This document shows, in pieces, positions 26,525-38,510 of a DNA stretch of 64,000 bases (within the stretch, counting starts at the first letter, position 1; each line of letters starts with the position of its first letter). A program made the position numbers and the translations under genes. The notes beneath the pieces were generated by a model that saw nothing but the letters and a program-made list of their open reading frames with translations, ran no database searches and was not told the DNA's origin. Source of the stretch: a phage. The stretch lies in assembly GCA_011911785.1 (NCBI GenBank), contig GCA_011911785.1_4084.1. One strand, 5' to 3'.

Positions 26525-26537
26525 GTTTTAAAAAGTA

Positions 26538-26566: not shown

Positions 26567-26618
26567 ACTTTCTATCAGGTGGGGAATAGTTCCCCACTAC
26601 AAATAAGAGAATTTAAAA

Positions 26619-26858
26619 ATGGCTACTACTAAAACTTTCAACGGTCACAAAAACAAAACTCAATGGAATGTAAGCCTTTGGATTAATAACGATGAGTCAT
26701 TGTATCGTCTGGCGAAAGAATTTATCGACGCTAATACTAATCGTAATGATGCGGCCCGTCATATGATGCTATTTTTAGAACAAATTGGACAAGATAAAAC
26801 ACCGGACGGATTCAAGTATAGCACTACTGCGATCCGTGCTGCAATGGTTGGCATGTAA
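26619..26858 (+). CDS. Hypothetical small early protein (79 aa)
   Basis: Own promoter cassette; start ATGGCT. Confidence 0.55.
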   Translation: MATTKTFNGHKNKTQWNVSLWINNDESLYRLAKEFIDANTNRNDAARHMMLFLEQIGQDKTPDGFKYSTTAIRAAMVGM

Positions 26859-26939
26859 GAGAATAGATTAAAAGTACTATTGCACGGTGATAGTACTTTA
26901 TAATAGATTTCTTTTATACATCAACGATGGGGTAACAGC

Positions 26940-27206
26940 ATGAATATTATATACTTTGCAACGCGTGAACTAGCTCGGATTGCAGCACGCCAGGACGGGG
27001 CGACGTTTAAAGATATGGGTGTACAATCGGAACGTGGTAAACGTTGGGCCGTAGTAAAGCAAAGTACAGCCCGATCAATTCAGTACTGGTTAGCGGCGTT
27101 AAAAAGTCCTGATAGTGTATCGCGTCGAGTAGTAGAAATAAAGCACGACCGCAAGGGCAACCGTGTTACTGTGTACAGTACTAAAAAGATTGCAGTACTT
27201 GAATAA
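26940..27206 (+). CDS. Hypothetical small early protein (88 aa); paralog of 38093-38488
   Basis: Shared FYATRE..FKDMG..HDRKGNRVTVYS. Confidence 0.55.
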   Translation: MNIIYFATRELARIAARQDGATFKDMGVQSERGKRWAVVKQSTARSIQYWLAALKSPDSVSRRVVEIKHDRKGNRVTVYSTKKIAVLE

Positions 27207-27211
27207 AAGTA

Positions 27212-27240
27212 CTTGCATACTAAGTTTAAAAGCGTATAAT
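27212..27240 (+). promoter_or_regulatory. Type-B early promoter CTTGCA-17-TATAAT; 5' stem-loop at 27253-27271
   Basis: Read directly. Confidence 0.6.
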
Positions 27241-27292
27241 ACTTTATATCAGGTGGGGAATACTTCCCCACTACAATGAAGAGGATTTTAAA

Positions 27293-27523
27293 ATGGCTAT
27301 CATGTATATGACCGAAGTTAAAACCGTAAAAGATACTACCACTAATAAAACTACTTACTTACAGCGGGTATGCGGTGTATGGCAACGTATTAGTAAAGCA
27401 AAGTACTTTAAATTAACATCATATGCTAATCGTTCGGATTCATTCAGTACTGAAATAAAAGGTAATAAATTACACCAATACGGCACTTATTATTATTATA
27501 GCCTGGACGCGATTGCAGTCTAA
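27293..27523 (+). CDS. Hypothetical small early protein (76 aa)
   Basis: RBS GAGGA; promoter cassette. Confidence 0.55.
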   Translation: MAIMYMTEVKTVKDTTTNKTTYLQRVCGVWQRISKAKYFKLTSYANRSDSFSTEIKGNKLHQYGTYYYYSLDAIAV

Positions 27524-27807
27524 GCAGTTTACAAATCTTTACAATTGCCGGTATTGACTTATTTTGTCAGTACTGGCATAATGTATCTATTGAAACGAAC
27601 AATTTGGCCCACGGGGTGCGGGAGTGTATCTATAGAAAAAGTAGTTTAGTACAGTTACAATTGTGCACCCGGTGGGTTAGCTGTTGTCATGGGGTATATT
27701 ATACCAGTACTTGATAATGCTGTCAATACTTTTTTTTACTATTCAGTACTGAAAACTATTTTTAAAAAGTACTTGCAAACTATGTTTAAAGGCGTATAAT
27801 GTTTTAC

Positions 27808-27883
27808 ATCAGGACGGGGAACGAAATAAGTAACTCCCCGTTAAGTAGCCCAGGAGTAAGGCATACGAAAAACTCCCCTGATA
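27808..27883 (+). other. Conserved ~76-nt structured leader element between tandem promoters (candidate small RNA or 5' leader)
   Basis: Second copy at 36895-36970; internal hairpin ACGGGGA..TCCCCGT; outer ATCAGG/CCTGAT; no start codon inside. Confidence 0.35.
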
Positions 27884-27889
27884 AAATAG

Positions 27890-27917
27890 TTTGACAATTG
27901 TTTTTAAAAGCGTATAA
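27890..27917 (+). promoter_or_regulatory. Early promoter TTGACA-16-TATAAT; 5' stem-loop at 27930-27953
   Basis: Read directly. Confidence 0.6.
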
Positions 27918-27973
27918 TACTTTACATCGAGGCGGGGGAATGATTCTCCCGCCTATAACCAGGAGTAAGCATC

Positions 27974-28207
27974 ATGATCGAACAAATCAAAACTACTACA
28001 AGCCGGACTGGAACGAAAGTACATTGCATCGCTGATAACGAAAAAGGCGTACCCTATTGTGCTGTACACGTAAACACAGATGGCGACTATTGGTTAACTG
28101 TATATGGGAGTTATTCGTTTGCTCGACCTGCTCATAGTAAGATCCTGGACGTAGTGAAGCCTACCGGAAAGGATATCACGGTAGAAAAATATTTTACTAA
28201 GCACTAA
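27974..28207 (+). CDS. Hypothetical small early protein (77 aa)
   Basis: RBS AGGAG. Confidence 0.55.
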   Translation: MIEQIKTTTSRTGTKVHCIADNEKGVPYCAVHVNTDGDYWLTVYGSYSFARPAHSKILDVVKPTGKDITVEKYFTKH

Positions 28208-28295
28208 AAAGTACTTGCATACTAAGTTTAAACGAGTATAATACTTTATATCGAGGCGGGGGAATGGTTCCCCTGCATTTACAGAGGATTATCTA

Positions 28296-28583
28296 ATGAG
28301 CAAAGTAATTGACTATAAAGTGTTAACCAAATCATTTTCTATCAGCCAGTGCACCGATGGTTATTGGCTTTATGATGAAACACGCGGCATGAATTTAGCT
28401 ATGCGGGAGAAAACTGCTGAGGCGGCGTATGTGCAAGCCCTGGAATACTACCAGAAACGTTTAAAGGAAGTAGAAGAGGATTATAAAAGCCTCAAAGAGA
28501 AAGTAGATAATTTCGTCGGTCAATTCGTTGACGATGACGAGGAAGACGGGTACTACTGCAACCGCTGCGGATCTTACAATTAA
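28296..28583 (+). CDS. Hypothetical small early protein (95 aa)
   Basis: RBS GAGGA; C-terminal CNRCG. Confidence 0.55.
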   Translation: MSKVIDYKVLTKSFSISQCTDGYWLYDETRGMNLAMREKTAEAAYVQALEYYQKRLKEVEEDYKSLKEKVDNFVGQFVDDDEEDGYYCNRCGSYN

Positions 28584-28600
28584 GTACTGAGGATTATCTA

Positions 28601-28804
28601 ATGAGTGATTTAATCGACCGTATCAAAGAGCTTGAAGAAAAAGAATTGCAGTTAATCGGCTTACAAAATAAAATCTTTCATGATTTGGGGAGTTTTATCA
28701 ATGCCTGGGATAGTGGCGATCCTGCTGCGTTACCTGCTAACCGCGAGGCGATGATCAATGATGTGCGTGGTGTCTTTGAGTATGTTTTAAAGCAATTAAA
28801 TTAA
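28601..28804 (+). CDS. Hypothetical small early protein (67 aa)
   Basis: Same RBS context GAGGATTATCTAATGAG as upstream gene. Confidence 0.55.
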   Translation: MSDLIDRIKELEEKELQLIGLQNKIFHDLGSFINAWDSGDPAALPANREAMINDVRGVFEYVLKQLN

Positions 28805-28811
28805 AAAAGTA

Positions 28812-28840
28812 CTTGCAATTAGTTTTCAGTACTGTATAAT
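28812..28840 (+). promoter_or_regulatory. Type-B early promoter CTTGCA-17-TGTATAAT; 5' stem-loop at 28854-28871
   Basis: Read directly. Confidence 0.6.
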
Positions 28841-28890
28841 AGTTTACATCAAGGGGAGAAATGGTTCTCCCTGGTAATGAGGAAAATAAA

Positions 28891-29112
28891 ATGGCTAATA
28901 TCACTACTCTTTCCCAACTTGAAGCACTGGTTAAATCTATGCGGGAACATGCCGACAATATCGGCGTAAAAGATCCAGCCGTTTGCTTCTGCGACGAATT
29001 GAATGATGATACATTGGTAATAGCAGAAGTCCAGGACGTTTCTAACTATTCATCGCGTTACACTGGCGGCGTAGCAAATAAAGGTGACTTCTGTTTATAC
29101 CTTACAAAATAA
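28891..29112 (+). CDS. Hypothetical small early protein (73 aa)
   Basis: Track start 28861 lies inside the leader hairpin; RBS GAGGA. Confidence 0.55.
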   Translation: MANITTLSQLEALVKSMREHADNIGVKDPAVCFCDELNDDTLVIAEVQDVSNYSSRYTGGVANKGDFCLYLTK

Positions 29113-29116
29113 CAAC

Positions 29117-29146
29117 GAGGGGATCAATTGATCCCCTTTCTTTTTT
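29117..29146 (+). terminator. Intrinsic terminator GGGGATC-aatt-GATCCCC + T-run
   Basis: Read directly. Confidence 0.75.
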
Positions 29147-29230
29147 CAGTACTGAATCATTTAATAGACGGATCTATGCACCCGGTGGGTTAGAGACTGT
29201 TTCGTCTTTATGTAGTAATTATACAGTACT
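29147..29230. repeat. ~80-bp repeat element (copy 3)
   Basis: Aligns with 25567-25646 and 25786-25868. Confidence 0.5.
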
Positions 29231-29357
29231 GGATGCAGTTGTCAAGAACTATTTTTCAAATACTTTTATATTAATGTACTATACAATAGTTTTTAAACGC
29301 GTATAATGTTTTACATCTAGTCGGGAATACTCCCTAGTACTAACAAAGGATATACAA

Positions 29358-29657
29358 ATGAAAACTGCAATCATCGCCCTGGCTTTATCTGTTTCCTCTT
29401 TCGCTGTTAATGCGTCGTTAGATGTACCTGGTGATAAATTCATTCAGTGCACCGTAGCAATGACCGATGAAAGTACTGGCGAGATTGTTTTAAAGGATCT
29501 GGAATTACAGCCAGAAGCATTTAAAAACGGGCCGTTCCATGAAGAAGACGAAAACGGTAGCACAACAATTTATTATGATGCAAAGAAAAAACGCGGTTCG
29601 GTCACTGTTATGGATACTGAGAAAGTAACGCATACAGGCGTTATTAACTGCCTATAA
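29358..29657 (+). CDS. Small secreted protein with signal peptide (99 aa)
   Basis: N-terminus MKTAIIALALSVSSFAVNA. Confidence 0.55.
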   Translation: MKTAIIALALSVSSFAVNASLDVPGDKFIQCTVAMTDESTGEIVLKDLELQPEAFKNGPFHEEDENGSTTIYYDAKKKRGSVTVMDTEKVTHTGVINCL

Positions 29658-29677
29658 TACATCAGTACTGAATCACT

Positions 29678-29705
29678 AGCCCACTATAAGCAGTGGGCTT
29701 TTTTG
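29678..29705 (+). terminator. Intrinsic terminator AGCCCACT-ataagc-AGTGGGCT + T-run
   Basis: Read directly; same module at 30408. Confidence 0.75.
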
Positions 29706-29752
29706 TAGTATCGTAGTACTGGAATACTTTGAAAATAGTTTTAAAAAAGTAG

Positions 29753-29780
29753 TTGACATTACCGCAAAAAGGCGTAGAAT
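29753..29780 (+). promoter_or_regulatory. Early promoter TTGACA-16-TAGAAT with ~120-nt leader
   Basis: Leader is a diverged copy of the 27808-type element. Confidence 0.5.
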
Positions 29781-29903
29781 GTATTACATCAAGACGGGGA
29801 ACACTAAGTAGACCGCCAGTAAGTCGAACGAAAAACTGGACACGTCGAGAAAACTTTGATACACTAACTAACGTAAACTAAACTTTAATTGAGGAATTAC
29901 ATA

Positions 29904-30386
29904 ATGGCTAACGTAAAATCATTCATCAAAGCACTGGTAGCAAATGAAACTAACGTAGCGGCAGAGATCCTGGCCGAACTGGATAGCGATACCATGAAAG
30001 CAGTACGCAACAATTTTAACATTGCGTACAGCGAAGCGAAAGAACTGCAAGCTAATAAAGCGGCAGCACTTGAAGCTGAGAAGGCAGCACGCGAAGCTGA
30101 ATTGCAGAAAACGATTGAAGATATTAACGCCGCCGTCGCTGGGCTTGATCTGGAAGTAGTTACCGAAATGGCACGTAAAGCCCTGGCAGCGAAATACGGG
30201 GAAGACAAGCCAGAAGTAAAAGCTAAAAAATGGATTCAGGAACGCGTGACGGTAGTACTGGATAACGGCGAGGAATACACTGTACCAGTACGCGGTAACT
30301 GCATTGCGGTAGTACTGGATGCTATCAAAGAAAGCGGATTGACTCGCGAGGAATGGATCGAAGCTCATCGCAAAGTTGAAGCATAA
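29904..30386 (+). CDS. Hypothetical Ala/Lys/Glu-rich protein (160 aa)
   Basis: RBS GAGGA; track start 29889 rejected. Confidence 0.55.
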   Translation: MANVKSFIKALVANETNVAAEILAELDSDTMKAVRNNFNIAYSEAKELQANKAAALEAEKAAREAELQKTIEDINAAVAGLDLEVVTEMARKALAAKYGEDKPEVKAKKWIQERVTVVLDNGEEYTVPVRGNCIAVVLDAIKESGLTREEWIEAHRKVEA

Positions 30387-30407
30387 CAATTAAAGTACTG
30401 AATCACT

Positions 30408-30435
30408 AGCCCACCTTAAACAGTGGGCTTTTTTG
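30408..30435 (+). terminator. Intrinsic terminator AGCCCAC..GTGGGCT + T-run
   Basis: Read directly. Confidence 0.7.
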
Positions 30436-30661
30436 TGTCTATCGTTTACCAGGCCAGCAGCACCGCCTAGAATCGATTCTAACGCATTAAACTGATTATC
30501 TGATGCATCGCCCTAGCTGGTGGCGTTAAGGTCGTTAGAATGCGATTGAGGACGTTTAAAGTATTTTGCAAAAAGTAATAAAAAGTACTTGCACGATTAA
30601 GAGATTAGCGTATAATTAATTTCATCAAGGCGAGACACCTTAACTAACTGAGGATATAAAG

Positions 30662-30814
30662 ATGAATACTTATGAACTGGATTGTTTCACTTTACAAGTA
30701 ATGTCAGTATGCAGCAAGAAAGATTGGTCATCAAAGGAATTTAAAGCAGTTATCGCGTGTGCAAAACACGGCAAGACTATCAATGAAACGGCATCAATCA
30801 TTGATAAACTTTAA
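30662..30814 (+). CDS. Hypothetical small protein (50 aa), not in ORF track
   Basis: Promoter CTTGCA-17-TATAAT upstream; RBS GAGGA; hand-translated. Confidence 0.4.
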   Translation: MNTYELDCFTLQVMSVCSKKDWSSKEFKAVIACAKHGKTINETASIIDKL

Positions 30815-30885
30815 AAAATAGTTTGACAATAGTTTTAAGTACTGACATAATACATACATCAACTACTGAATAGGAATTAAAAAAA

Positions 30886-31113
30886 ATGGCTATCGTAATC
30901 ACTCGCGTAACTGGTACTACTGGCAATTCTTCTACTGTTGCTGTAATTACTAACAAGAAAGGTGCGGAACTACATTTTGCAATGTATAACTGGTCAGTTG
31001 ATGAGTTTGGTCAGTACGCTAGTGTAGAATACATTGAAACCTATCAAGTGCCGTCGATTAGTTTAACTGATTTGGGCGTTGAGCGTATCCTTTGCCTGGA
31101 TGAATTAAATTAA
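30886..31113 (+). CDS. Hypothetical small early protein (75 aa)
   Basis: Promoter TTGACA-17-CATAAT upstream. Confidence 0.55.
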   Translation: MAIVITRVTGTTGNSSTVAVITNKKGAELHFAMYNWSVDEFGQYASVEYIETYQVPSISLTDLGVERILCLDELN

Positions 31114-31198
31114 AAAAGTACTTGCAAAGTAAAACGAATAAAGTATAATACATTACATCAAGGGGAGAAATGGTTCTCCCCACTAAGAGGAAACGAAA

Positions 31199-31342
31199 AT
31201 GAAAACTTGTCAATGTGGTAAAAAATCTATTACTGGTTTAAAGCGGGGCGTTGCTCTTTGTCAGTATCACTATAATGCTCAAGTATGGGGTAAAGAGTGG
31301 GCCGACCAGGTTGAAGCAGTAAAGAAAGCAAAAAGTAAGTAA
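31199..31342 (+). CDS. Small Cys-rich protein (47 aa), not in ORF track
   Basis: Promoter + GGGGAGAA hairpin + RBS GAGGAAA; CQCG..CQYH. Confidence 0.4.
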   Translation: MKTCQCGKKSITGLKRGVALCQYHYNAQVWGKEWADQVEAVKKAKSK

Positions 31343-31433
31343 AATTATTATCACAGTACTATTGACATAGATTGATAGTACTGGCATAATAGATTTTATC
31401 AAGACAACACATATTAATTTAAGGAATACTAAA

Positions 31434-31646
31434 ATGGCTATCATTATTAAAAACAAAGTTAACAAGACTATCGTTAAACTGGCAGAAGTGAAAGAAGGTT
31501 ATAAAGTATCTTGGGAGGGTTTTTATAGGATGTTCACAGATATAGACGATGCAATCAAGTACTACACTGATACGGTTGCTGACTTTGTTCGTTCTGATGT
31601 AGTAATGGCAGTTGCACAACATAAAGCATCGAAAGAAAGTAAGTAA
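31434..31646 (+). CDS. Hypothetical small early protein (70 aa)
   Basis: Upstream cassette 31345-31433 duplicated at 31647-31737. Confidence 0.55.
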   Translation: MAIIIKNKVNKTIVKLAEVKEGYKVSWEGFYRMFTDIDDAIKYYTDTVADFVRSDVVMAVAQHKASKESK

Positions 31647-31737
31647 AAATATTATCACAGTACTATTGACATAGTTTGATAGTACTGGCATAATAGATTT
31701 TATCAAGACAACACATATTAATTTAAGGAATACTAAA

Positions 31738-32061
31738 ATGGCTAAAACTATCATTAACACCGTATCCCTGGCTGCAATCCGTGCAATCAATGTTGACGGT
31801 AAACGTTGGACTGATTCATATGGCAATACTTATCATTCTTGTCATGTAAGCGTTGAACTGGATAACGGTGTGAATGATCTGGCGGTTGAATCATTTACTT
31901 ATGGCTATGAAGATGCATATCAACAAACGGCGTTATCTCTCTTAAAGGAATCAGTAGATGGGCTTGATACTGTTGAAACCTCCCTTAATCGTTTGTGCAA
32001 TGATTTGTCTATCCCGTTGCATTGTACTGTACAGAATGTTAAACGCAAAAAAGATCTTTAA
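31738..32061 (+). CDS. Hypothetical small early protein (107 aa); paralog of 37670-37993
   Basis: Shared RWTDSxGNTYHSC..FTYGY. Confidence 0.55.
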   Translation: MAKTIINTVSLAAIRAINVDGKRWTDSYGNTYHSCHVSVELDNGVNDLAVESFTYGYEDAYQQTALSLLKESVDGLDTVETSLNRLCNDLSIPLHCTVQNVKRKKDL

Positions 32062-32141
32062 TTAGCTTTACTTTATGCAGATACTTTGATATAGTGTCTG
32101 CATAGGGGAAAGAAATTAAATTAACTTAAGAGGATAGTATA

Positions 32142-32411
32142 ATGAAAAATATCAGTACTTTAATCGATGCAGGTACGCATGTTCGTCGGTCTATGGTTGC
32201 AACCAGTACTACAAAACAAGTACCAAGCGGTTATCTTGTATTTGTACACGATGGAAAACTCCTGGAACGTTCAATCAATTTTGATGTTAAGAACAATTGT
32301 CGTTTTATTATCTTTAAGCGTGAACAATATAAAATTGATTTGCCAGCGAAGCCCATTAGCGGGGCGTACAACGTGCAATCATTGTTTGAGCGTCAACCAT
32401 ACACCTATTAA
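32142..32411 (+). CDS. Hypothetical small early protein (89 aa)
   Basis: RBS AAGAGGA; inverted repeat TGCAGATACT/AGTGTCTGCA upstream. Confidence 0.5.
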   Translation: MKNISTLIDAGTHVRRSMVATSTTKQVPSGYLVFVHDGKLLERSINFDVKNNCRFIIFKREQYKIDLPAKPISGAYNVQSLFERQPYTY

Positions 32412-32462
32412 TCAAAACATCGTTAGCGGTCGATTTAGGCCGCTAATATTGAGGATAATACC

Positions 32463-32633
32463 ATGAACGTTAATCAAGTACTGAATGAAGTTGAAAGCAT
32501 CATTAAACCTATGCAGCGTAGCGATGCTATTCCTACACCGGAAGAATGCAGACTATACGAACAATACAGCGTAGAACAAGCCCAGGCGATGGCCCGTATT
32601 CGTCCGGTTGCTAGTACTGATAAGGCGGTGTAA
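32463..32633 (+). CDS. Hypothetical small protein (56 aa), not in ORF track
   Basis: RBS GAGGA; coupled to next gene (TAATATG). Confidence 0.4.
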   Translation: MNVNQVLNEVESIIKPMQRSDAIPTPEECRLYEQYSVEQAQAMARIRPVASTDKAV

Positions 32634-32634
32634 T

Positions 32635-32844
32635 ATGCTTACTGTACAGGATAAGATCGACATCTTAAAGGTTAATATGTATGTGATTGATGCCGTACCT
32701 GGTAAAGTATTTGCATACGATGATTCTAATCGTAGTCCTTTCTATTGTAGTCATGTAGTTGGATACGTGCCGTTGGCGTATGTTATCGAAAGAGTGGTTG
32801 ATGCAGCATACAATCATTTTTTAGAAAATAATACTTGCAATTAG
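32635..32844 (+). CDS. Hypothetical small early protein (69 aa)
   Basis: Track start 32608 rejected. Confidence 0.5.
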   Translation: MLTVQDKIDILKVNMYVIDAVPGKVFAYDDSNRSPFYCSHVVGYVPLAYVIERVVDAAYNHFLENNTCN

Positions 32845-32913
32845 TTTTCAGTACTGTATAATTGTTTACATAGAGGGGGGAAATGGTTCTCCCCTGATAC
32901 TAGGAGAATCAAA

Positions 32914-33066
32914 ATGAAACAATACAACGCTCGGTTTGATGTTACTATCGGCAACGGCAAAGGTCAATTTTCTTTCAGTACTCGTCGCAGTTATACAGAA
33001 AACTTCCTGCGTAATTGTGCATTGACCGCCGCACAAATTAAACATTACTTCCAGGCTAAAAAATGA
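32914..33066 (+). CDS. Hypothetical small protein (50 aa), not in ORF track
   Basis: Promoter + hairpin + RBS AGGAG. Confidence 0.4.
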   Translation: MKQYNARFDVTIGNGKGQFSFSTRRSYTENFLRNCALTAAQIKHYFQAKK

Positions 33067-33152
33067 AATCATTGGCTTATTACAGTTCGGCGGTGATCGG
33101 TGCATTGATCGCGGCATTGTTAGTAACCTATCTATTCTTTGTGGTGATTTAA
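33063..33152 (+). CDS. Tiny hydrophobic peptide (29 aa)
   Basis: ATGA overlap with upstream stop; single TM-like segment. Confidence 0.25.
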   Translation: MKSLAYYSSAVIGALIAALLVTYLFFVVI

Positions 33153-33290
33153 ATGAATCCTAACGGTTTAATTTACAGTGCTCCTAAAACGAAAGCAGAT
33201 AAAGCGAAAGCACGTAAAGCGAAAGTAAAGGAGTACATCAAGCAAGGCATGACGCGAAAAGCAGCAGTACTAAAAGCTAAAAATAAATGA
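33153..33290 (+). CDS. Small Lys-rich basic protein (45 aa)
   Basis: TAAATG overlap; hand-translated. Confidence 0.3.
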   Translation: MNPNGLIYSAPKTKADKAKARKAKVKEYIKQGMTRKAAVLKAKNK

Positions 33291-33295
33291 AAAAA

Positions 33296-33329
33296 GTGGT
33301 TGACTTCGGTCAGCCATTTTGCTATTATA
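33296..33329 (+). promoter_or_regulatory. Type-A terminator/promoter cassette
   Basis: GTGGTTGACTTCGGTCAGCCA hairpin; -10 TATTAT; 13-nt motif follows at 33353. Confidence 0.55.
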
Positions 33330-33409
33330 TATTCATTGAGAGATAGCTCACTAGCCCACCGGGTGCGGAAGTGTAAATAAAATATATCAATCTAATAAGG
33401 AGTACTACA

Positions 33410-33592
33410 ATGTTTAAACCAATCGAACTAGCGGCATCACATATCATCGGTAAACCTGCCGTTATCATACGCCAGGAAGACGTAAACCTATGGATCATCT
33501 ATGTAGACATGAAAGAGATTGAGCGTCACGATGATTTCAAATCAGCGTCAATTGCGTATGATATGGCGTTATGTGAGTATCAAAGAGATTAA
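33410..33592 (+). CDS. Hypothetical small early protein (60 aa)
   Basis: RBS AAGGAG. Confidence 0.5.
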   Translation: MFKPIELAASHIIGKPAVIIRQEDVNLWIIYVDMKEIERHDDFKSASIAYDMALCEYQRD

Positions 33593-33691
33593 AAGTATTT
33601 TGCAAAAAGTACTTGCATTGTACTTAGAATCAAGTATAATGTTTTACATAGCAAGGGGAAACGGTTTCCCCTGGTAATAAGGAAACGAATC

Positions 33692-34033
33692 ATGACTATC
33701 TCAATTGCTCAATCTAACTTTGAAAACGAAATCATCGCCCAGGCACTGCGTTTAAATGATGGTCGGGCCGAAATTAATTACGGTTTCAATTCAGGCGGTT
33801 GTGAAAACTATCAGTACTTTGTAACGGCTGATGGCGGTGTCCTGGGAATCAATACAGTTATTGTAAACATTCAGAAAATTAATTTCAATGATCCAGACGA
33901 TAGCCAGTTTTACATTGTCGGCGTAGACGTGAACTATGAGGATGACTCACTAACTGATGATTGCACTGGTGAGAAGTTAGAAAGTGCATACGGTGAAGAT
34001 GATTATCAGTCCGGTCCAGAAGATTTCGAATAA
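33692..34033 (+). CDS. Hypothetical acidic protein (113 aa)
   Basis: Promoter cassette; RBS AAGGAAA. Confidence 0.55.
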   Translation: MTISIAQSNFENEIIAQALRLNDGRAEINYGFNSGGCENYQYFVTADGGVLGINTVIVNIQKINFNDPDDSQFYIVGVDVNYEDDSLTDDCTGEKLESAYGEDDYQSGPEDFE

Positions 34034-34128
34034 TATTAAAAAATAGTTTGACAATAGATTATAGTACTGTATAATAGTTTACATCAAGGGGAGAATAGTT
34101 CTCCCCACTAACAGAGAGAGAAAACAAA

Positions 34129-34341
34129 ATGGCTAATATCCGGTCGAAATTGAAAAATGCAAAACAAGTTTTATTTTCAGACCATGAATACTTTAATAAA
34201 GATATTACAGGAGTTACAAGTATCAAGGAAGTAAAAGAAAAAACTGGCGTTTTGTGTGATGTGCGATTGGTTGGAACATTTGGGAATAACGTGCTATATC
34301 GATGCGGTGATTATAACTTTACATTAACCATTATCGATTAA
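34129..34341 (+). CDS. Hypothetical small early protein (70 aa)
   Basis: Promoter TTGACA..TGTATAAT + hairpin upstream. Confidence 0.55.
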   Translation: MANIRSKLKNAKQVLFSDHEYFNKDITGVTSIKEVKEKTGVLCDVRLVGTFGNNVLYRCGDYNFTLTIID

Positions 34342-34423
34342 AAATATTATCACAGTACTATTGACAAAGATTGATAGTACTGGCATAATAGATTTTATCA
34401 ACTACACTACTAAGGAATTAAAA

Positions 34424-34603
34424 ATGGCTATCATCGCAAAAACTGAAATCGTTGGTCTGGATTCTATCATCATGACGTTTGAAGATCAAAAAGGGATGTA
34501 TGTAGTTTCCTATGGTGATTATGTTCGGGAGTATGAAACGGTAGACGAAGCCTTTGAAAGTTACATTCGCCAGGTGAATAAAGCATACGACGACTACCGC
34601 TAA
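34424..34603 (+). CDS. Hypothetical small early protein (59 aa)
   Basis: Upstream cassette shared with 31434 and 31738; track start 34361 rejected. Confidence 0.5.
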   Translation: MAIIAKTEIVGLDSIIMTFEDQKGMYVVSYGDYVREYETVDEAFESYIRQVNKAYDDYR

Positions 34604-34702
34604 AATATATTACCAGTACTATTAAAGATATTGACATAGTTTGATAGTACTGTATAATAAGTTTTATCAACAGTAGTTAACTTAACCTAAGAGAGAAAGA
34701 AA

Positions 34703-34846
34703 ATGATCGCACTGGATTCATTCATCGAAGCAGTACTGGCAAAAACTGGCGAAGATCTGACCGCAGAACAATACGCAATGATCGAACAATGCCAGCAAGA
34801 CGGTAAATCGGTGAAAGATACTGTTAAGATTATCCGCAAGATGTAA
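34703..34846 (+). CDS. Hypothetical small protein (47 aa), not in ORF track
   Basis: Promoter + RBS AGAGAGAAAG; terminator follows. Confidence 0.4.
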   Translation: MIALDSFIEAVLAKTGEDLTAEQYAMIEQCQQDGKSVKDTVKIIRKM

Positions 34847-34852
34847 GATTAT

Positions 34853-34882
34853 AGCCCACTGGTTAACGCTGGTGGGCTTTTT
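34853..34882 (+). terminator. Intrinsic terminator AGCCCAC..GTGGGCT + TTTT
   Basis: Read directly. Confidence 0.65.
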
Positions 34883-35024
34883 AGTATATACCTATCCGAT
34901 AGTACTACAAAATAGATTAGCTCGTTAGAATGCGTTTGAGAGCGTTTAAATAAGTACTAAAAAGTAATTGACAGTACTGAAAGATAGTATATAATATTTT
35001 ATATCTTAACTGAGGATAGAAATC

Positions 35025-35381
35025 ATGGGAATACAACACATCACGCGTACTACTGACAATGGTGAGATCACTGGTTATCAAGTACAGGGAAAAGCGTCAC
35101 AATTGCAGTACTGGTTTGAAAAACGTGGATTGATTGCACCGGATCTTGATTATGACCGTGTAGCGTTTATTGATTCTCTTTATGTTGATTCTGCTAGTCG
35201 GGGTAATGGTGAAGGCACGGAATTGATGAACGCCTTTATTGATGCCGCCGATGATTCAGATTGTATCATTTTAGAATGCGATACGGGAGAAGATAACGCC
35301 TTTAATCTTAAAGAATGGTACGAAGGTTTCGGATTCGAAGTACTGATCGATAGTGAATATCCTATCATGATTTTATCGTAG
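35025..35381 (+). CDS. Putative GNAT-family N-acetyltransferase (118 aa)
   Basis: Motif A-like VDSASRGNGEGTELM and motif B-like NAFNLKEWYEGFGF. Confidence 0.5.
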   Translation: MGIQHITRTTDNGEITGYQVQGKASQLQYWFEKRGLIAPDLDYDRVAFIDSLYVDSASRGNGEGTELMNAFIDAADDSDCIILECDTGEDNAFNLKEWYEGFGFEVLIDSEYPIMILS

Positions 35382-35469
35382 TACTAAAAAGTAATTGACA
35401 GTACTGATAGATAGTGTATAATGTTTTACATGAAGGGGAAACATCTTCCCCTACTAAGAGGAAATGAAA

Positions 35470-35658
35470 ATGGAAAACTTATCAAGTATTTTAGTACAAG
35501 ATGAATACGGCAATCCAGGAAGTGCTATCATTGTTCGGGGTAATAAGGCAACGTTTGTTATTGCTGGTGGACCTGTACAGCGTAGCATTAAAAACAATGC
35601 CGTTACTATTAATAATGTACGCTATCGCTTAGATAAAGAATTGATTCACAAACTGTAA
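35470..35658 (+). CDS. Hypothetical small early protein (62 aa)
   Basis: RBS AAGAGGA 7 nt upstream; promoter + hairpin. Confidence 0.5.
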   Translation: MENLSSILVQDEYGNPGSAIIVRGNKATFVIAGGPVQRSIKNNAVTINNVRYRLDKELIHKL

Positions 35659-35685
35659 TATTAATTTAATAGAGGATAACAATAA

Positions 35686-36009
35686 ATGTACATTCATACT
35701 ACTATCACAAAGGAAGTCCGTTGCCAGTTCGAAAGTATTCCGGGCGTATGTTTCATCACTGGTACGTTTTCCCCTGGTGATCGTGATAATCCAGTACTGT
35801 TACAATTACGCCATCCATCATGGGATAAAGCATTTGATCTACCGTTGAATGAATTCGCAACTACTGCTGAAAAGTACATTAAAAATATTCGCGAGAATGA
35901 TCGACTATTCATTAATGCTTTTAGTGATTCCGCGTTAAGCGAGATCCACGGCGTATTGGTTGCAATCATGGAATCTATGCAGAAAACTAAATTCAAACAA
36001 GGTGAATAA
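35686..36009 (+). CDS. Hypothetical small early protein (107 aa)
   Basis: RBS AGAGGA. Confidence 0.55.
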   Translation: MYIHTTITKEVRCQFESIPGVCFITGTFSPGDRDNPVLLQLRHPSWDKAFDLPLNEFATTAEKYIKNIRENDRLFINAFSDSALSEIHGVLVAIMESMQKTKFKQGE

Positions 36010-36093
36010 AAACTATTGACAATGCAATCCAGTACTGTATAATAAGTTACATGAAGGGGAGAAATGATTCTCCCCAGTACTGAGGAAAGAAAA

Positions 36094-36306
36094 ATGCAAG
36101 GTCAACTAATCGTTCGTAAATGGTCTGATACTAACGAAAAACCGTGGGATGTACAATACATCGCCCCCAATGGTGAATCCAGATATCAACCAGGTGTAAC
36201 GCATAGTACTGAGCAATTCGCCGCCGCACACCGTGAACGCCTGTTACAATCCATGCAGCAAGGCTTCGGTGAAAAATTCATCCAAGATCATTGGCTGAAA
36301 GATTAA
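36094..36306 (+). CDS. Hypothetical small early protein (70 aa)
   Basis: Track start 36064 lies in the leader hairpin; RBS GAGGAAAG. Confidence 0.55.
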   Translation: MQGQLIVRKWSDTNEKPWDVQYIAPNGESRYQPGVTHSTEQFAAAHRERLLQSMQQGFGEKFIQDHWLKD

Positions 36307-36393
36307 AAAAGTACTTGTGAAGTACTTAGAATCAAGTATAATGTTTTACATAGAGAGGGGAATAGTTCCCCTCCTAACAAAAAGGAAAGTAAC

Positions 36394-36567
36394 ATGATCC
36401 AAGTAGAATTGACAGTACTGAAAGATCTGTTTTATCGGATGGGTACTACTGGCGAATATCCGAAAGGTGATACCGCAAAACTTTACGTATCGCTGGATGT
36501 ATGGCAACGCGAACAATTAGCAACGGCCTGGCGTAAAGGCAAAGCAGATCGCGAGGTGCAAGCATGA
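36394..36567 (+). CDS. Hypothetical small protein (57 aa), not in ORF track
   Basis: Promoter + hairpin + RBS AAAGGAAAG. Confidence 0.4.
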   Translation: MIQVELTVLKDLFYRMGTTGEYPKGDTAKLYVSLDVWQREQLATAWRKGKADREVQA

Positions 36568-36713
36568 AAGAATACTTATTCGAAGTTACATTTTTGGGGC
36601 AAGGTATGCACCAACTAGTAAGATCCAGCGGTTATAGTCTTAACCAGGCATGGAATAACTTAAAGAAAATGTACCCTAACGCTATCACATATCGCAACCC
36701 AAAAGAAGTTTAA
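36564..36713 (+). CDS. Hypothetical small protein (49 aa), not in ORF track
   Basis: ATGA overlap with upstream gene. Confidence 0.35.
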   Translation: MKEYLFEVTFLGQGMHQLVRSSGYSLNQAWNNLKKMYPNAITYRNPKEV

Positions 36714-36727
36714 AAATAATTGAAAAA

Positions 36728-36760
36728 GGGATTGACTCCGGTCAGTCCCTTTGCTATTAT
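36728..36760 (+). promoter_or_regulatory. Type-A terminator/promoter cassette
   Basis: GGGATTGACTCCGGTCAGTCCC hairpin; -10 TATTAT; motif GCCCACAGGGTGC at 36781. Confidence 0.6.
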
Positions 36761-36894
36761 ATACGCATAGAAACAAATCAGCCCACAGGGTGCATAAATG
36801 TATCTATTATATGCTGGTGGACGTATTATCTAGTACTGAAAACTATTATAAAAAAGTACTTGCATTGTACTTAGAATCAAGTATAATGTTTTAC

Positions 36895-36970
36895 ATCAGG
36901 ACGGGGAATGAAACAAGTAACCCCGTTAAGTAGTCCAGGAGTAAGACATAAGAAAACCTCCCCTGATAAA
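36895..36970 (+). other. Conserved ~76-nt structured leader element (copy 2)
   Basis: About 85% identical to 27808-27883; lies between promoter at 36858-36887 and promoter at 36976. Confidence 0.35.
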
Positions 36971-36975
36971 ATAGT

Positions 36976-37003
36976 TTGACAATAGAAAGTAAACGAGTAT
37001 AAT
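36976..37003 (+). promoter_or_regulatory. Early promoter TTGACA-16-TATAAT
   Basis: Read directly. Confidence 0.6.
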
Positions 37004-37035
37004 ACTTACATCAACCACTGATAAGGAAACATAAA

Positions 37036-37311
37036 ATGCGGATTCTACTGACAGCTAACGAAATCGAACAAGTACTGACTACTAACCTGCAAGACTGGAA
37101 ACGTGAAGCAGATATCCAGGCGGTTCAATGGCTTAACGATAAGTTAACGCCGGATGACTTAAGCAAGATTGTAGATCCTCAATTCTATGAAGATATTCAC
37201 GACACCGCGTTAAGCGTCGAGGATGTACTTGATAAGCACTACATTGATATTGATTTGCAGGTTTACGGTCGTAAAAACTTTATCACTATTCACGACATTT
37301 ACAATAATTAA
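37036..37311 (+). CDS. Hypothetical small early protein (91 aa)
   Basis: RBS AAGGAAA. Confidence 0.55.
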   Translation: MRILLTANEIEQVLTTNLQDWKREADIQAVQWLNDKLTPDDLSKIVDPQFYEDIHDTALSVEDVLDKHYIDIDLQVYGRKNFITIHDIYNN

Positions 37312-37314
37312 GTA

Positions 37315-37342
37315 TTGACAAAGTATCTTAGTACTGTATAAT
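37315..37342 (+). promoter_or_regulatory. Early promoter TTGACA-16-TGTATAAT; 5' stem-loop at 37357-37375; cassette duplicated at 37573-37640
   Basis: Read directly. Confidence 0.6.
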
Positions 37343-37398
37343 AGTTTACATCAAGTGAGGGGAATGGTTCCCCTCCTAACTAAAAGAGAGAAATAAAA

Positions 37399-37581
37399 AT
37401 GGCTAAGTGCACTATCTGTAAGAAAGAAATCGTATTAGTTCCAAGTGCCCGTGAACGTGCCGCTCGGTTCGGTGGCAAAGCGTCAGACTATACAAAAATG
37501 TTTACTACCCATGCAGATTGCCAGGTAGCAAAACGTTCACAAGAAAGCGTAGAATTAATGCGTAAACTTTCCAGAAAATAA
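37399..37581 (+). CDS. Small Cys-containing protein (60 aa)
   Basis: CTICKK..HADC; start ATGGCT. Confidence 0.5.
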   Translation: MAKCTICKKEIVLVPSARERAARFGGKASDYTKMFTTHADCQVAKRSQESVELMRKLSRK

Positions 37582-37669
37582 GTATTGACAAAGTATCTTA
37601 GTACTGTATAATAGTTTACATCGAGTGAGGGGAAACGGTTCCCCTCCTAACAAAGAGAGAGAAATAAAA

Positions 37670-37993
37670 ATGGCTATGATCCTCACCCAGAAAGTAGAAC
37701 TGAAAATTGTAACCTCCTTTGACATTAAAGTTAATCGGTGGACTGATTCACACGGCAATACTTACCACTCTTGCTACGTGTCTGCTTTGATTGGTGATCG
37801 CTGGGAGGATTTAGGACATGAAACCTTTACTTACGGTTACGGCACACAAGGCGAATACACAGGCTTGGAGATCATTAAAGAAACCGTTATAGGTTTCAAC
37901 CCGAAAGAAAAAGTTATTCATCAAATAGAAAAAGAGATCAACAAAGAAATAACAGTTCGATACTACGATGTAAAACGTAAGAAAGACATGTAA
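37670..37993 (+). CDS. Hypothetical small early protein (107 aa); paralog of 31738-32061
   Basis: Track start 37625 rejected. Confidence 0.55.
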   Translation: MAMILTQKVELKIVTSFDIKVNRWTDSHGNTYHSCYVSALIGDRWEDLGHETFTYGYGTQGEYTGLEIIKETVIGFNPKEKVIHQIEKEINKEITVRYYDVKRKKDM

Positions 37994-38015
37994 TAGAATC
38001 CATTTAAAGTACTAT

Positions 38016-38044
38016 TTGACATTGCCCAGATAGTACTTTATAAT
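38016..38044 (+). promoter_or_regulatory. Early promoter TTGACA-17-TATAAT
   Basis: Degenerate copy precedes paralog gene at 26940. Confidence 0.55.
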
Positions 38045-38092
38045 AGACTCTAGCTTGTAGTACTAATTAACTTAACTAATAGGATGTATACC

Positions 38093-38488
38093 ATGATTAC
38101 TAAATTCTACGCTACCCGTGAAGCTGCCCGTATTGTTGCACGCGAGGAAGGAGCAGCATTTAAAGACATGGGCACGACCGCACCGAAAGGCCAACGCTGG
38201 GCCGTACAGTTCAAAGAAATCTCTGATATTGTGCATTCACCTGAGCCAGTACTAACAGCAGCAGAACTAAAACGAGCGGATATGCTGGCGGCAGTACTTA
38301 ACGCACAAGATGAGTTTATCGCTGGTTCTGATATCAAAGTACAGGTAAATGCTAATGCATGGACTCACGCGGATCACCTGGCTAACCTGAAGCGTCCAAG
38401 TGAACTGGTTCGCAACCAAAAAGAGATCCGTCATGATCGTAAGGGTAATCGTGTAACAGTATACAGTAAACGCCGCCAGGTTATCTAA
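38093..38488 (+). CDS. Hypothetical early protein (131 aa); paralog of 26940-27206
   Basis: RBS AGGA 8 nt upstream. Confidence 0.55.
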   Translation: MITKFYATREAARIVAREEGAAFKDMGTTAPKGQRWAVQFKEISDIVHSPEPVLTAAELKRADMLAAVLNAQDEFIAGSDIKVQVNANAWTHADHLANLKRPSELVRNQKEIRHDRKGNRVTVYSKRRQVI

Positions 38489-38510
38489 TAACTTGCAGTA
38501 CTAACAACAC

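What the first reader, a model, noticed from the sequence alone, without database searches (positions are those of the whole stretch)
27808..36970. Conserved ~76-nt structured element between tandem promoters: candidate small RNA or regulatory leader
27808-27883 and 36895-36970 are about 85% identical, start right after a promoter -10, contain an internal hairpin ACGGGGA..TCCCCGT and complementary ends ATCAGG/CCTGAT, and are followed immediately by a second promoter that drives the downstream gene. A diverged, longer version forms the ~120-nt leader of 29904-30386. The elements contain AGGAG but no start codon. Conservation of sequence and pairing without coding capacity suggests an RNA function.
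Basis: inference. Interest (0 to 1): 0.55.

Follow-up and report, generated by a model that had tools for sequence, protein, structure and literature searches.

The report
Pseudoknotted early-leader RNA shared with T7
The two ~76-base repeats are real and carry a folded, non-coding RNA module, transcribed from strong early promoters, that also lies between the A1 and A2 promoters of phage T7 and in over 500 other enterobacterial phage genomes; I found no description of it, and its function is unknown.

Summary
Copies at 27808-27882 and 36895-36967 are about 91% identical. Each starts at the +1 of a sigma-70-type promoter and ends just before a perfect second promoter. The window is an Asteriusvirus (121Q/G17-like) jumbo coliphage.

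The conserved core is TAAGTAGNC-N6-TAAGNCNNANGAAAA. It forms a 4-5 bp hairpin (P3) whose stem differs between lineages: GGAG/CTCC, CCAG/CTGG, CCTG/CAGG, CTTG/CAAG. A 3-bp pseudoknot (G-N-C with G-N'-C) has a covarying middle pair: A-U 20, C-G 5, U-A 5, one mismatch. The complementary ends ATCAGG/CCTGAT match a closing helix found, with other sequences, in relatives.

The window holds a third, shorter copy at 29793-29846. The same core lies in the T7 A1 leader directly upstream of A2, and in 507 phage records. It was not found in E. coli genomes, Rfam or the searched literature.

That this is a structured early-leader RNA family is well supported (about 0.85). What it does is inferred. My best guess is a nascent or 5'-leader RNA that binds a conserved host machine, possibly RNA polymerase as the HK022 put RNA does. 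A released decoy RNA is the main rival.

The parts
27773..27800 (+). Promoter P1 of copy A (TTGCAA-16-TATAAT). The inferred transcript start is at ACAT 27806-27809.
   Evidence: Consensus scan, 10/12. It belongs to a family of 19 near-identical cassette promoters in the window (D1). Activity is inferred, not shown.
27808..27882 (+). Copy A, long form. Closing helix ATCAGG 27808-13 / CCTGAT 27877-82. Hairpin P2 27814-20 / 27835-41. Linker TAAGTAGCCCA 27842-52. Pseudoknot GCC 27848-50 / GGC 27860-62. Hairpin P3 GGAG 27853-56 / CTCC 27873-76, with loop TAAGGCATACGAAAAA 27857-72.
   Evidence: Sequence; fold; covariation of P3 and the pseudoknot across 31 distinct homologues; found by a model built from T7/T3-like phages only, E 2.5e-5.
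27891..27918 (+). Promoter P2 of copy A (TTGACA-16-TATAAT), followed by a standard 5' hairpin, an SD and the ORF 27974-28207.
   Evidence: 12/12 consensus match. The ORF matches phrog_9227, function unknown.
29753..29780 (+). Promoter of copy C (TTGACA-16-TAGAAT), directly after the terminator-like hairpin 29678-29699.
29793..29846 (+). Copy C, short form, with no P2 hairpin. Closing helix GACG 29793-96 / CGTC 29843-46. TAAGTAG 29805-11. Pseudoknot GAC 29811-13 / GTC 29823-25. P3 CCAG 29816-19 / CTGG 29836-39. It forms the 5' part of the leader of ORF 29904-30386.
   Evidence: E 5e-6 with the T7-only model. The orthologous copy in phage EJP2 has CCTG/CAGG instead, a compensatory change.
36860..36887 (+). 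Promoter P1 of copy B (TTGCAT-16-TATAAT). The inferred start is at ACAT 36893-36896.
   Evidence: Read; same cassette-promoter family (D1). The -35 is below the scanner's threshold.
36895..36967 (+). Copy B, long form. Closing helix 36895-900 / 36962-67. P2 ACGGGG 36901-06 / CCCCGT 36921-26. Pseudoknot GTC 36933-35 / GAC 36945-47. P3 GGAG 36938-41 / CTCC 36958-61.
   Evidence: E 7e-4 with the T7-only model. The pseudoknot middle pair is U-A here and C-G in copy A.
36976..37003 (+). Promoter P2 of copy B (TTGACA-16-TATAAT), with a short unstructured leader, then ORF 37036-37311.
   Evidence: 12/12 match. The ORF matches phrog_14947, function unknown.

Best explanation
The element is a compact, pseudoknotted, non-coding RNA domain at the 5' end of transcripts made by the host sigma-70 RNA polymerase from strong early promoters.

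Its conserved core has three parts: a single-stranded UAAGUAG(N)C; a 4-5 bp hairpin (P3) with a 16-17 nt loop UAAG(N')C..A.GAAAA; and a 3-bp pseudoknot between G-N-C of the linker and G-N'-C of the loop. The sequence just 3' of P3 pairs back to an upstream segment and closes the domain. In the window's long form this is ATCAGG/CCUGAU, which also encloses an extra hairpin, P2.

The window has three copies: two long and one short. The same domain is the A1-to-A2 leader of T7-group phages. There the closing strand is the -35 hexamer of A2.

Shown: the sequence family, the helices and their covariation, and the position behind early promoters.

Inferred: its invariant unpaired bases are shared by unrelated phage families that have only their enterobacterial hosts in common. 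The RNA therefore most likely binds a conserved host machine, either as it emerges from the polymerase or as a 5' leader. My preferred guess is the transcribing RNA polymerase itself, giving anti-pausing or read-through like the HK022 put RNA. An RNA-decay or termination factor is the next choice. The immediately following second promoter supplies element-free transcripts of the same gene.

Roughly: identity as a structured RNA family 0.85; action in cis on transcription or RNA fate 0.35.
For: 1. P3: the four inner pairs are paired in 31/31 distinct sequences. Three pairs change on both sides (CG/GC; CG/GC/UA; UA/AU). 0/500 shuffles reach the observed covariation score, and pairing collapses when partners are slid.

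2. Pseudoknot: the middle pair is A-U 20, C-G 5, U-A 5, with one C.A intermediate. Both N positions and the P3 3' arm were left unconstrained in the search pattern.

3. T7-like set: four helices, 11 pairs changed on both sides against 2.5 +/- 1.3 in shuffles, 0/500. The hairpin-loop:tail helix is fully rewritten in three lineages: GTCAA/TTGAC, GATTAG/CTAATC, GTCGGT/ACCGAC, GTCATC/GATGAC.

4. Closure helix: it starts within 4 nt after P3 in 15 of 17 family members.

5. Controls: 14 chance pattern hits outside phage leaders have a >=4 bp stem in only 2/14, against 31/31 in phage leaders.

6. Independent detection: a model built from T7/T3-like phages alone finds exactly the three window copies (E 5e-6 to 7e-4; next best hit E 4) and all jumbo and V5-like copies.

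7. G.U pairs appear only when the + strand is read.

8. Flanks vary while the element is constant. There are at least 4 upstream promoter types and at least 7 different downstream genes across Asteriusvirus, Justusliebigvirus and Vequintavirinae.

9. Position: T7 A1 (498) and A2 (626) are annotated promoters and the core lies at 551-594. Each window copy's promoter region is preceded by another transcription signal: terminator-like hairpins upstream of copies C and B, and a further + strand promoter-like site (27554-27582) upstream of copy A, where no terminator was found.

10. Distribution: 507 phage records, one place each.
Against: No experiment bears on function.

Within the long form alone there is no compensatory change.

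In T7, the A2 and A3 transcripts express the same genes without the element, so a cis requirement cannot be absolute.

Copy C's unit ends at a terminator-like hairpin right after one gene (30408-30429). That is odd for a read-through device.

There is no sequence similarity to HK022 put, and no boxA in the window.

In T7-group phages, part of the loop and the 3' arm coincide with the UP-element/-35 region of A2. Some of the conservation there may therefore act at the DNA level.

The pseudoknot rests on one covarying pair flanked by two invariant pairs.

The homologous loci were gathered with a sequence pattern, so family members that lack the pattern were not sampled.
Confidence: 0.6

Rival explanations
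1. A trans-acting small RNA or decoy. P1 (A1 in T7) exists to produce large amounts of the folded ~60-80 nt domain within seconds of DNA entry. The domain is freed from the longer transcript by processing: RNase III at R0.3 in T7, or RNase E in the A/U-rich tail elsewhere. It then titrates or mimics the ligand of a host RNA-binding protein or an antiviral sensor.
For: No ORF lies between P1 and P2, so P1 looks dedicated to the element.

The domain is closed by a terminal helix, which would make a stable free RNA.

It sits behind the strongest, first-entering promoter in T7 and within a direct-terminal-repeat feature annotated in a related jumbo phage, a few kb from the start of several related records.

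The window phage carries three copies.

From my own knowledge, T7 leader fragments are released by RNase III.
Against: No intrinsic terminator follows any copy. 3'-end formation is therefore hypothetical.

No complementary or similar sequence was found in 5,426 E. coli genomes. This argues against an antisense target of any length, but says nothing about a protein target.

Universal presence in Studiervirinae looks more like a core function than an accessory counter-defence.
Confidence: 0.2
2. A DNA-level promoter accessory. The conserved bases would be an UP element or factor-binding site that boosts or regulates the downstream promoter (P2, or A2 in T7). The apparent RNA structure would be incidental.
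For: In T7-group phages GAAAAACAGG lies at about -47 to -38 of A2. From my own knowledge, this is where the proximal UP subsite AAAAAARNR lies. The closing strand is the -35 hexamer itself. The T7.1 record annotates a 'conserved -45 base of A2' here (H265).
Against: The distance from P3 to the next -35 varies from 2 to 46 nt, and some members have no adjacent promoter (copy C, L035, L039, L025).

Stem sequences change while pairing is kept, which duplex DNA recognition does not require.

Where the tail is not a -35 (L025, L031, L057), it still complements the hairpin loop.

G.U pairs are strand-specific.
Confidence: 0.07
3. A decayed expression cassette or recombination scar. It would be a former promoter / 5' hairpin / SD / ATG unit whose ORF was deleted by recombination between the repeated promoters, as happens with PeSL-type shuffling. 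It would be carried along passively.
For: The window has more than 30 stereotyped promoter-hairpin-SD-ATG cassettes.

The element has the same geometry: a hairpin, then about 10 nt, AGGAG, 8 nt, and ACG or AAG where an ATG would be.

Phage EJP2 carries a truncated copy with a junction inside the element (L007:17-64).

Flanks are shuffled between phages.
Against: AGGAG is replaced by CCAG, CCTG or CTTG, with matching changes in the opposite arm, so it is a helix strand and not an SD.

The core is shared with T7-group phages, which do not have this cassette architecture.

The boundaries are identical in at least three different right-hand contexts.

Variation is concentrated in loops.
Confidence: 0.05
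4. A small ligand-sensing aptamer, riboswitch-like: an H-type pseudoknot with an A-rich third loop, as in the preQ1 or SAM-II classes, tuning early transcription to the host's metabolic state.
For: It is a compact pseudoknot of aptamer size, with many invariant unpaired nucleotides and an A-rich loop crossing the short helix.
Against: No Rfam family matches, even at a permissive threshold.

There is no expression platform. No terminator or RBS-sequestering alternative follows.

The downstream context is not conserved.
Confidence: 0.05

Closest known systems
The A1-to-A2 interpromoter leader of phage T7 and other Studiervirinae (NC_001604 positions ~541-594)
   Same: It has the same conserved core (TAAGTAGAC..CCTG ATAAGTCGCACGAAAAA CAGG), the same P3 hairpin and pseudoknot, and the same placement: behind a strong sigma-70 early promoter and ahead of the next one. 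A covariance model from these phages alone retrieves the window's three copies.
   Different: T7-group members have an additional 5' hairpin. They close the domain by pairing the loop of the preceding hairpin with the tail, which is the A2 -35. The window's long form instead closes it with a 5'-terminal strand (ATCAGG/CCUGAU) around a larger hairpin P2. In the records fetched, only promoter features (-35 signal, '-45 base') are annotated under this sequence. I found no Rfam family or paper treating it as an RNA element.
HK022 putL/putR antiterminator RNAs
   Same: These are also ~70-nt non-coding RNAs with two stem-loops, encoded just downstream of phage early promoters and transcribed by host RNA polymerase. 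They act without phage proteins by binding the elongation complex (PMC9378689). Size, position and two-arm architecture resemble the long form.
   Different: There is no detectable sequence or structure similarity: model R1 finds nothing in the HK022 early region. No -10-like pause element was recognised. Antitermination activity is untested. The element is often followed by a promoter rather than by a long operon leader.
PeSL promoter/stem-loop cassettes of T4-like phages
   Same: They lie in hyperplastic arrays of small early genes with repeated strong sigma-70 promoters and stem-loops. These serve as recombination points and shuffle flanking genes (PMC4122927). The window's array and the element's variable flanks fit that setting.
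   Different: PeSLs are composite terminator/promoter motifs. The element has no terminator, is not simply a promoter plus a GC hairpin, and has a conserved pseudoknotted core shared with phages that lack such arrays.
Lambda nut / rrn leader boxB-boxA antitermination sites
   Same: These are leader RNA signals downstream of early or tandem promoters. Many T7-like leaders carry a boxA-like GCTCTTTAACAA 54-412 nt downstream of the core.
   Different: No boxA occurs near the window copies (one search is at chance level). The P3 loop is 16-17 nt, not a GNRA-like pentaloop.

Membership tests
   Three exact matches in the window (27842, 29805, 36927) against 0.01 expected for the related 19-mer.
   GGAG/CTCC in A and B, CCAG/CTGG in C. 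31/31 sequences are paired at the 4 inner pairs.
   A: GCC/GGC. B: GTC/GAC. C: GAC/GTC. 30 of 31 sequences pair at the middle position.
   ATCAGG/CCTGAT in A and B (about 4% of shuffled tails do as well). GACG/CGTC in C (2.6%).
   Model R2, built from Autographiviridae only: E 5e-6, 2.5e-5 and 7e-4; next hit E 4.1.
   Promoter consensus matches sit directly upstream. T7 A1 is an annotated promoter. Transcription in this phage is not measured.
HK022 put RNA | ~70 nt, two stem-loops, just downstream of an early promoter | tested here: met
   The 75-nt long form has P2 and P3 arms and starts at about +3 of P1. The put description comes from PMC9378689.
HK022 put RNA | Sequence/structure similarity to putL or putR | tested here: not met
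   Model R1 finds nothing better than E 0.7 in HK022 24000-34000. I assumed, but did not confirm, that this stretch contains the put sites.
HK022 put RNA | Suppresses pausing and termination by binding the RNA polymerase beta' zinc-binding domain | not testable with these tools
   Needs in vitro transcription or genetics.
PeSL (T4-like promoter-early stem-loop) | Composite terminator plus early promoter | tested here: not met
   No terminator-like site lies in or after the element. Separate composite terminator/promoter hairpins do exist elsewhere in the array, e.g. 36725-36760.
PeSL (T4-like promoter-early stem-loop) | Marks junctions between shuffled genes in closely related phages | tested here: met
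   At least 7 different downstream genes and at least 4 upstream promoter types flank the element. One truncated copy exists.
Any Rfam 15 family | Match to a curated covariance model | tested here: not met
   No hit at gathering score in the window. Only noise at E up to 10 around copies A and B. Nothing at E <= 1 in T7 1-1100.
Terminator-defined phage sRNA (e.g. lambda OOP type) | Own promoter plus intrinsic terminator giving a discrete short RNA | tested here: not met
   A promoter is present, but there is no G+C hairpin plus T-run after the element.
nut / rrn-type Nus-factor antitermination leader | boxA (GCTCTTTAACAA) near the hairpin | tested here: not met
   The window has only chance-level near-matches, none near the copies. 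boxA is present in many T7-like leaders.

The most novel reading that the evidence does not exclude
This is a previously unrecognised class of phage early-leader RNA: a ~60-80 nt double-pseudoknotted domain conserved from T7 to 350-kb jumbo phages. It would act as a protein-independent effector on a host machine, for example by reprogramming E. coli RNA polymerase (anti-pausing or read-through during transcription-coupled genome entry), or by neutralising a host RNA-decay, termination or antiviral factor in the first seconds of infection.
Probability: 0.3. Interest if true: 0.85.

Novelty: new variant of a known kind. Interest (0 to 1): 0.68.

Why it matters
T7 is among the best-studied viruses, and its A1 promoter region is a standard tool in transcription research. 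Yet the most conserved non-coding stretch of its early leader seems never to have been treated as an RNA structure.

Unrelated phage families share one pseudoknotted domain, and the only thing they have in common is an enterobacterial host. That points to a host target important enough to be addressed by the very first RNA these phages make.

Identifying the target could reveal a new way phages control host transcription or RNA metabolism. It could explain the tandem early promoters, and it could provide a portable 5' leader part for synthetic biology.

The claim is directly testable in T7 with existing genetics and in vitro transcription systems.

Tried and rejected
1. tRNA or tmRNA: ARAGORN finds none in the window.

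2. Known RNA family: Rfam at gathering score and at permissive thresholds gave nothing.

3. Tiny ORF. An ATA-initiated 8-codon frame fits copies A and B. However, the ATA is ACA in muut, outra, EmilieFrey and G17 copy A, so I rejected it.

4. Vestigial SD/ATG cassette. The geometry is attractive, but the AGGAG covaries as a stem arm, so I rejected it.

5. More distant members through IMG/VR, metagenome and genome scans:
- The strict long-form patterns returned only 121Q and two near-identical metagenome contigs, plus one chance human-like hit.
- The genome-contig scan with the core pattern gave 13 hits in unrelated taxa. One of them (L062) is a T3-like contig carrying the real motif. The other 12 lack the phage-leader context and mostly lack the P3 stem, so I used them as a chance control.
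- A scan anchored on the 3' arm plus -35 added only one real member, L098, among random hits.

6. Host origin or antisense target: no blastn match in 5,426 E. coli genomes.

7. boxA linkage: present in many T7-likes but absent from the jumbo-phage copies.

8. put homology: none.

9. Literature searches for Asteriusvirus promoters, T7 early-leader elements and the exact T7 sequence found no functional description.

10. Covariation within the 13 long-form sequences alone has no power, because the helices are invariant or change only to G.U.

11. The downstream genes gave no clue; all are PHROGs of unknown function.

Full report
**Setting.** The window comes from an Asteriusvirus-type jumbo coliphage. 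The stretch 27000-38000 matches phages 121Q, G17, CRJP21 and others at about 90%. From about 24.8 to 44 kb it is an array of small + strand ORFs. Each ORF sits behind a stereotyped cassette: AAAAAGTACTTGCA or TTGACA, then GTATAAT, then TTTACAT, a G+C hairpin, an SD and an ATG. There are 19 or more copies. One related record (vB_Ec-M-J) annotates its copies of the element as lying within a direct-terminal-repeat feature, and in several related records copy A lies about 3.4-3.8 kb and copy B about 13-15 kb from the start of the record. This region is therefore probably early-expressed DNA near a genome end; that is an inference.

**The observation.** They are 90.6% identical over 85 nt. Each begins at the ACAT of a cassette-type promoter and ends about 8 nt before a perfect TTGACA-16-TATAAT. 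The complementary ends are present in both copies. The inner hairpin has 7 bp in A and 6 bp in B. MFE folds give a Y-shaped structure with z = -3.3 and -2.1. No tRNA or Rfam family matches. No start codon opens a frame, and stop codons close all three frames.

**Close relatives.**
- The ~80-nt element occurs in 45 phage records and 103 places, all at 84% identity or more.
- Asteriusvirus has two long-form copies per genome, or four where the record holds both terminal repeats.
- Justusliebigvirus (muut, outra, EmilieFrey) and Vequintavirinae (A73, W70, A7_1, A5-4) have one copy each.
- In every case the order is promoter, element, second promoter, gene.
- The first promoter comes in at least four types. 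The second promoter and the gene differ: at least seven unrelated genes follow the element. Its boundaries stay the same.
- Phage EJP2 holds a copy that lacks the 5' half.
- Within these 13 distinct long-form sequences, variation sits mainly in the P2 loop and the P3 loop.

**The short form and the key helix.** At the locus where A7_1 and A73 carry the long form, their relatives UPEC06 and LTH01 carry a shorter variant. It resembles the window's third copy at 29786. The short form lacks the inner hairpin but keeps ACATCARGACGGGG, TAAGTAGAC and a hairpin whose loop, TAAGTCGNANGAAAA, is conserved. Its stem, however, is different:
- ACTTG/CAAGT in UPEC06 and LTH01
- CCAG/CTGG in the window's copy C
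- CCTG/CAGG in the orthologous EJP2 copy
- GGAG/CTCC in the long form

**T7.** blastn with copy C also hit the left ends of T7-group phages. In T7 itself the A1 transcript, which starts at 498, reads ...CCGGGGTCAACCGGA TAAGTAGACAG CCTG ATAAGTCGCACGAAAAA CAGG TA TTGACA. The final hexamer is the -35 of A2.

I searched IMG/VR with the pattern TAAGTAGNC-N5-9-TAAGNCNNANGAAAA. It constrains neither the stem nor the two N positions. It returned 40 loci: mostly T7/T3-like contigs, plus 121Q and an Erwinia-type jumbo phage. The same pattern in 596 Gb of bacterial and archaeal genomes gave 13 hits. One (L062) is a T3-like contig; the other 12 are scattered across unrelated taxa, which is about the chance expectation by my own rough estimate. 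Of 14 chance hits (those 12 plus IMG/VR loci L041 and L045), only 2 have a stem of 4 bp or more, against 31 of 31 in phage leaders.

A 47-nt T3-type consensus matches 507 phage records, one place each. They are Studiervirinae of Escherichia, Klebsiella, Salmonella, Yersinia, Enterobacter, Citrobacter, Serratia, Pantoea and Aeromonas. It matches nothing in 5,426 complete E. coli genomes. Jumbo phages Munch and Hallingskeid carry it too, again between two promoters.

**Structure.** On 31 distinct cores (alignment A3):
- P3 is paired in every sequence at its four inner positions. Three pairs change on both sides. 0 of 500 shuffles reach the observed covariation score, and pairing drops to 23-48% when partners are slid.
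- The N of TAAGTAG-N-C and the N of TAAG-N-C are complementary in 30 of 31 sequences: A-U 20, C-G 5, U-A 5. The exception, EmilieFrey (C.A), is one step from its neighbour outra (C-G). With the invariant flanking G-C and C-G pairs this makes a 3-bp H-type pseudoknot.

On 19 distinct T7-like sequences (alignment A7), four helices are supported together: 11 pairs with double changes against 2.5 +/- 1.3 in shuffles, 0/500. These include a helix between the loop of the preceding hairpin and the bases just after P3. That helix is rewritten completely in three lineages: GTCAA/TTGAC, GATTAG/CTAATC, GTCGGT/ACCGAC, GTCATC/GATGAC.

In other members the same tail pairs instead with a 5' segment:
- CAACGAA/TTCGTTG in L035
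- GCGGC/GTCGC in L056
- GACGG/CCGTC in UPEC06
- GACG/CGTC in window copy C
- ATCAGG/CCTGAT in window copies A and B

In all, 15 of 17 members have such a helix starting within 4 nt of P3.

**Independence of the homology call.** A covariance model built only from Autographiviridae sequences finds exactly three places in the 64-kb window, copies C, A and B (E 5e-6, 2.5e-5, 7e-4; next best 4.1). It also finds all jumbo, V5-like and Justusliebigvirus copies. One caveat applies. The training loci were collected with a pattern partly derived from the window, so the E-values overstate independence. The unconstrained stem, pseudoknot and tail pairings are the independent evidence.

**What it is not.**
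- It is not a decayed SD/ATG cassette, because the AGGAG covaries as a stem arm.
- It is not simply an UP element. The distance to the next -35 ranges from 2 to 46 nt and some members have no adjacent promoter, yet the core is unchanged. In T7-group phages the loop and 3' arm do coincide with the -47 to -38 region of A2, so dual use there is possible.
- It is not a terminator-defined sRNA.
- It is not a PeSL, which is a composite terminator/promoter (PMC4122927), although the surrounding array is PeSL-like.
- It is not related in sequence to HK022 put.
- It is not associated with boxA in this phage.

**How it probably works (inference).** The invariant unpaired bases are UAAGUAG and UAAG..A.GAAAA. 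They are shared by phage families that otherwise share little beyond an enterobacterial host. That points to a conserved host ligand rather than a phage protein.

The domain is made by host polymerase behind early promoters. In T7 this is the first major host-polymerase promoter downstream of the left end of the genome (annotated positions). In this phage, terminator-like hairpins lie upstream of the promoters of copies C and B, and a further + strand promoter-like site lies upstream of copy A.

The closest functional analogue is the HK022 put RNA. It is about 70 nt, has two arms, lies just downstream of an early promoter, and binds the elongation complex to suppress pausing and termination (PMC9378689). 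A put-like action would suit both transcription-driven genome entry in T7 (from my own knowledge) and read-through of the ten + strand terminator-like sites in this 20-kb array.

Against this, T7 A2 and A3 transcripts lack the element, and copy C's unit ends at a terminator after a single gene.

The main alternative is an abundant free RNA that titrates a host factor. No terminator defines its 3' end. In T7, however, RNase III releases the leader (from my own knowledge). I rate the cis model at about 0.35, the trans model at about 0.2, and other options as small.

**Novelty.** The sequence has been public since T7 was sequenced. In the records fetched it is annotated only as promoter context, as in the T7.1 record. 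I found no Rfam family. No paper in the searchable library treats it as an RNA element; the three papers that contain the T7 sequence string have titles and abstracts on unrelated topics, and I did not read them. Older subscription literature could not be searched, so prior description cannot be excluded.

Noticed in passing
window 24800-44000 (e.g. 26066-26135, 28800-28891, 31109-31200, 40154-40254): More than 30 stereotyped early cassettes: an A-tract, GTACTTGCA or TTGACA, GTATAAT, TTTACAT, then a 5' G+C hairpin whose stem covaries (GGTGGGGAA..TTCCCCAC, GAGCGGGAA..TTCCCGCT, GGCAGGGAA..CTCCCTGC), then SD and ATG. The initial transcribed sequence CATCGAGAG(C)GGGA of several cassettes is nearly the same as that of T7 A1 (CATCGAGAGGGA).
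   Followed up: partly
window 33293-33328, 36725-36760, 40036-40071, 43116-43151; similar at 189-235: A repeated composite signal, AAAGGGATTGACTCCGGTCAGTCCCTTTGCTATTATAT. It is a terminator-like hairpin whose loop and stem contain the -35 (TTGACT) of a following promoter-like site, which makes it a PeSL-like terminator/promoter unit. One lies about 130 nt upstream of copy B's promoter.
   Followed up: no
window 27608-27619 and 27665-27676; 27726->27698 (minus strand): Upstream of copy A lies an inverted repeat, CCCACGGGGTGC .. GCACCCGGTGGG, and a perfect leftward TTGACA-17-TATAAT with an extended TG. It would transcribe the repeat on the minus strand of an otherwise + strand array. The arrangement (a leftward promoter upstream of the A1-like promoter) recalls A0/A1 in T7. 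A related sequence is present in EJP2 and, in part, upstream of copy B (36775-36815).
   Followed up: no
window 24880-26100: About 1.2 kb with no convincing ORF, directly behind a perfect promoter at 24852-24879. It lies near the point where related records begin (their copy A lies about 3.4 kb from the record start). G17 annotates no CDS and only one terminator in the ~1.9 kb gap between its CDSs at L014 8403 and 10297, which appears to correspond by position. It is possibly another non-coding early transcript or a terminal/packaging region.
   Followed up: no
window 10900-20550, minus strand: Nine tandem units of about 1.2 kb, each ending in the same ~80-130 nt upstream region (AACATTCTAACAAAAGGTAACATA..CCTCCTTTATTCATTATA). 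This is an array of paralogous genes; annotations of the CDSs upstream of the early-gene array in UE-S1 and G17 call them RCC1-like or 'DNA condensation' proteins, though I did not check that these correspond to the window's repeat units.
   Followed up: no
L007:17-64 (phage EJP2, OQ411014 ~344086-344133): A truncated copy of the element that starts inside the P2 3' arm (..CCGTTAAGTAG..) behind unrelated sequence. It keeps the core, the CCTGAT tail and a following promoter. This is a recombination junction inside the element.
   Followed up: partly
L018 (T7) 589-594; alignment A7 columns 58-63: In T7-group phages the -35 hexamer of promoter A2 (TTGACA) is also the 3' strand of the covarying loop-tail helix of the leader RNA. 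In lineages where that strand is not TTGACA (L025, L031, L057), the next promoter lies 19-37 nt further downstream.
   Followed up: yes
T7-like loci L018-L058: A boxA-like sequence ([GT]CTCTTTAA[CA]AA) follows the core by 54-412 nt in about half of the T7-like leaders examined. It is only 54-60 nt downstream in L035 and L039, which have no intervening promoter. None occurs near the window copies.
   Followed up: partly
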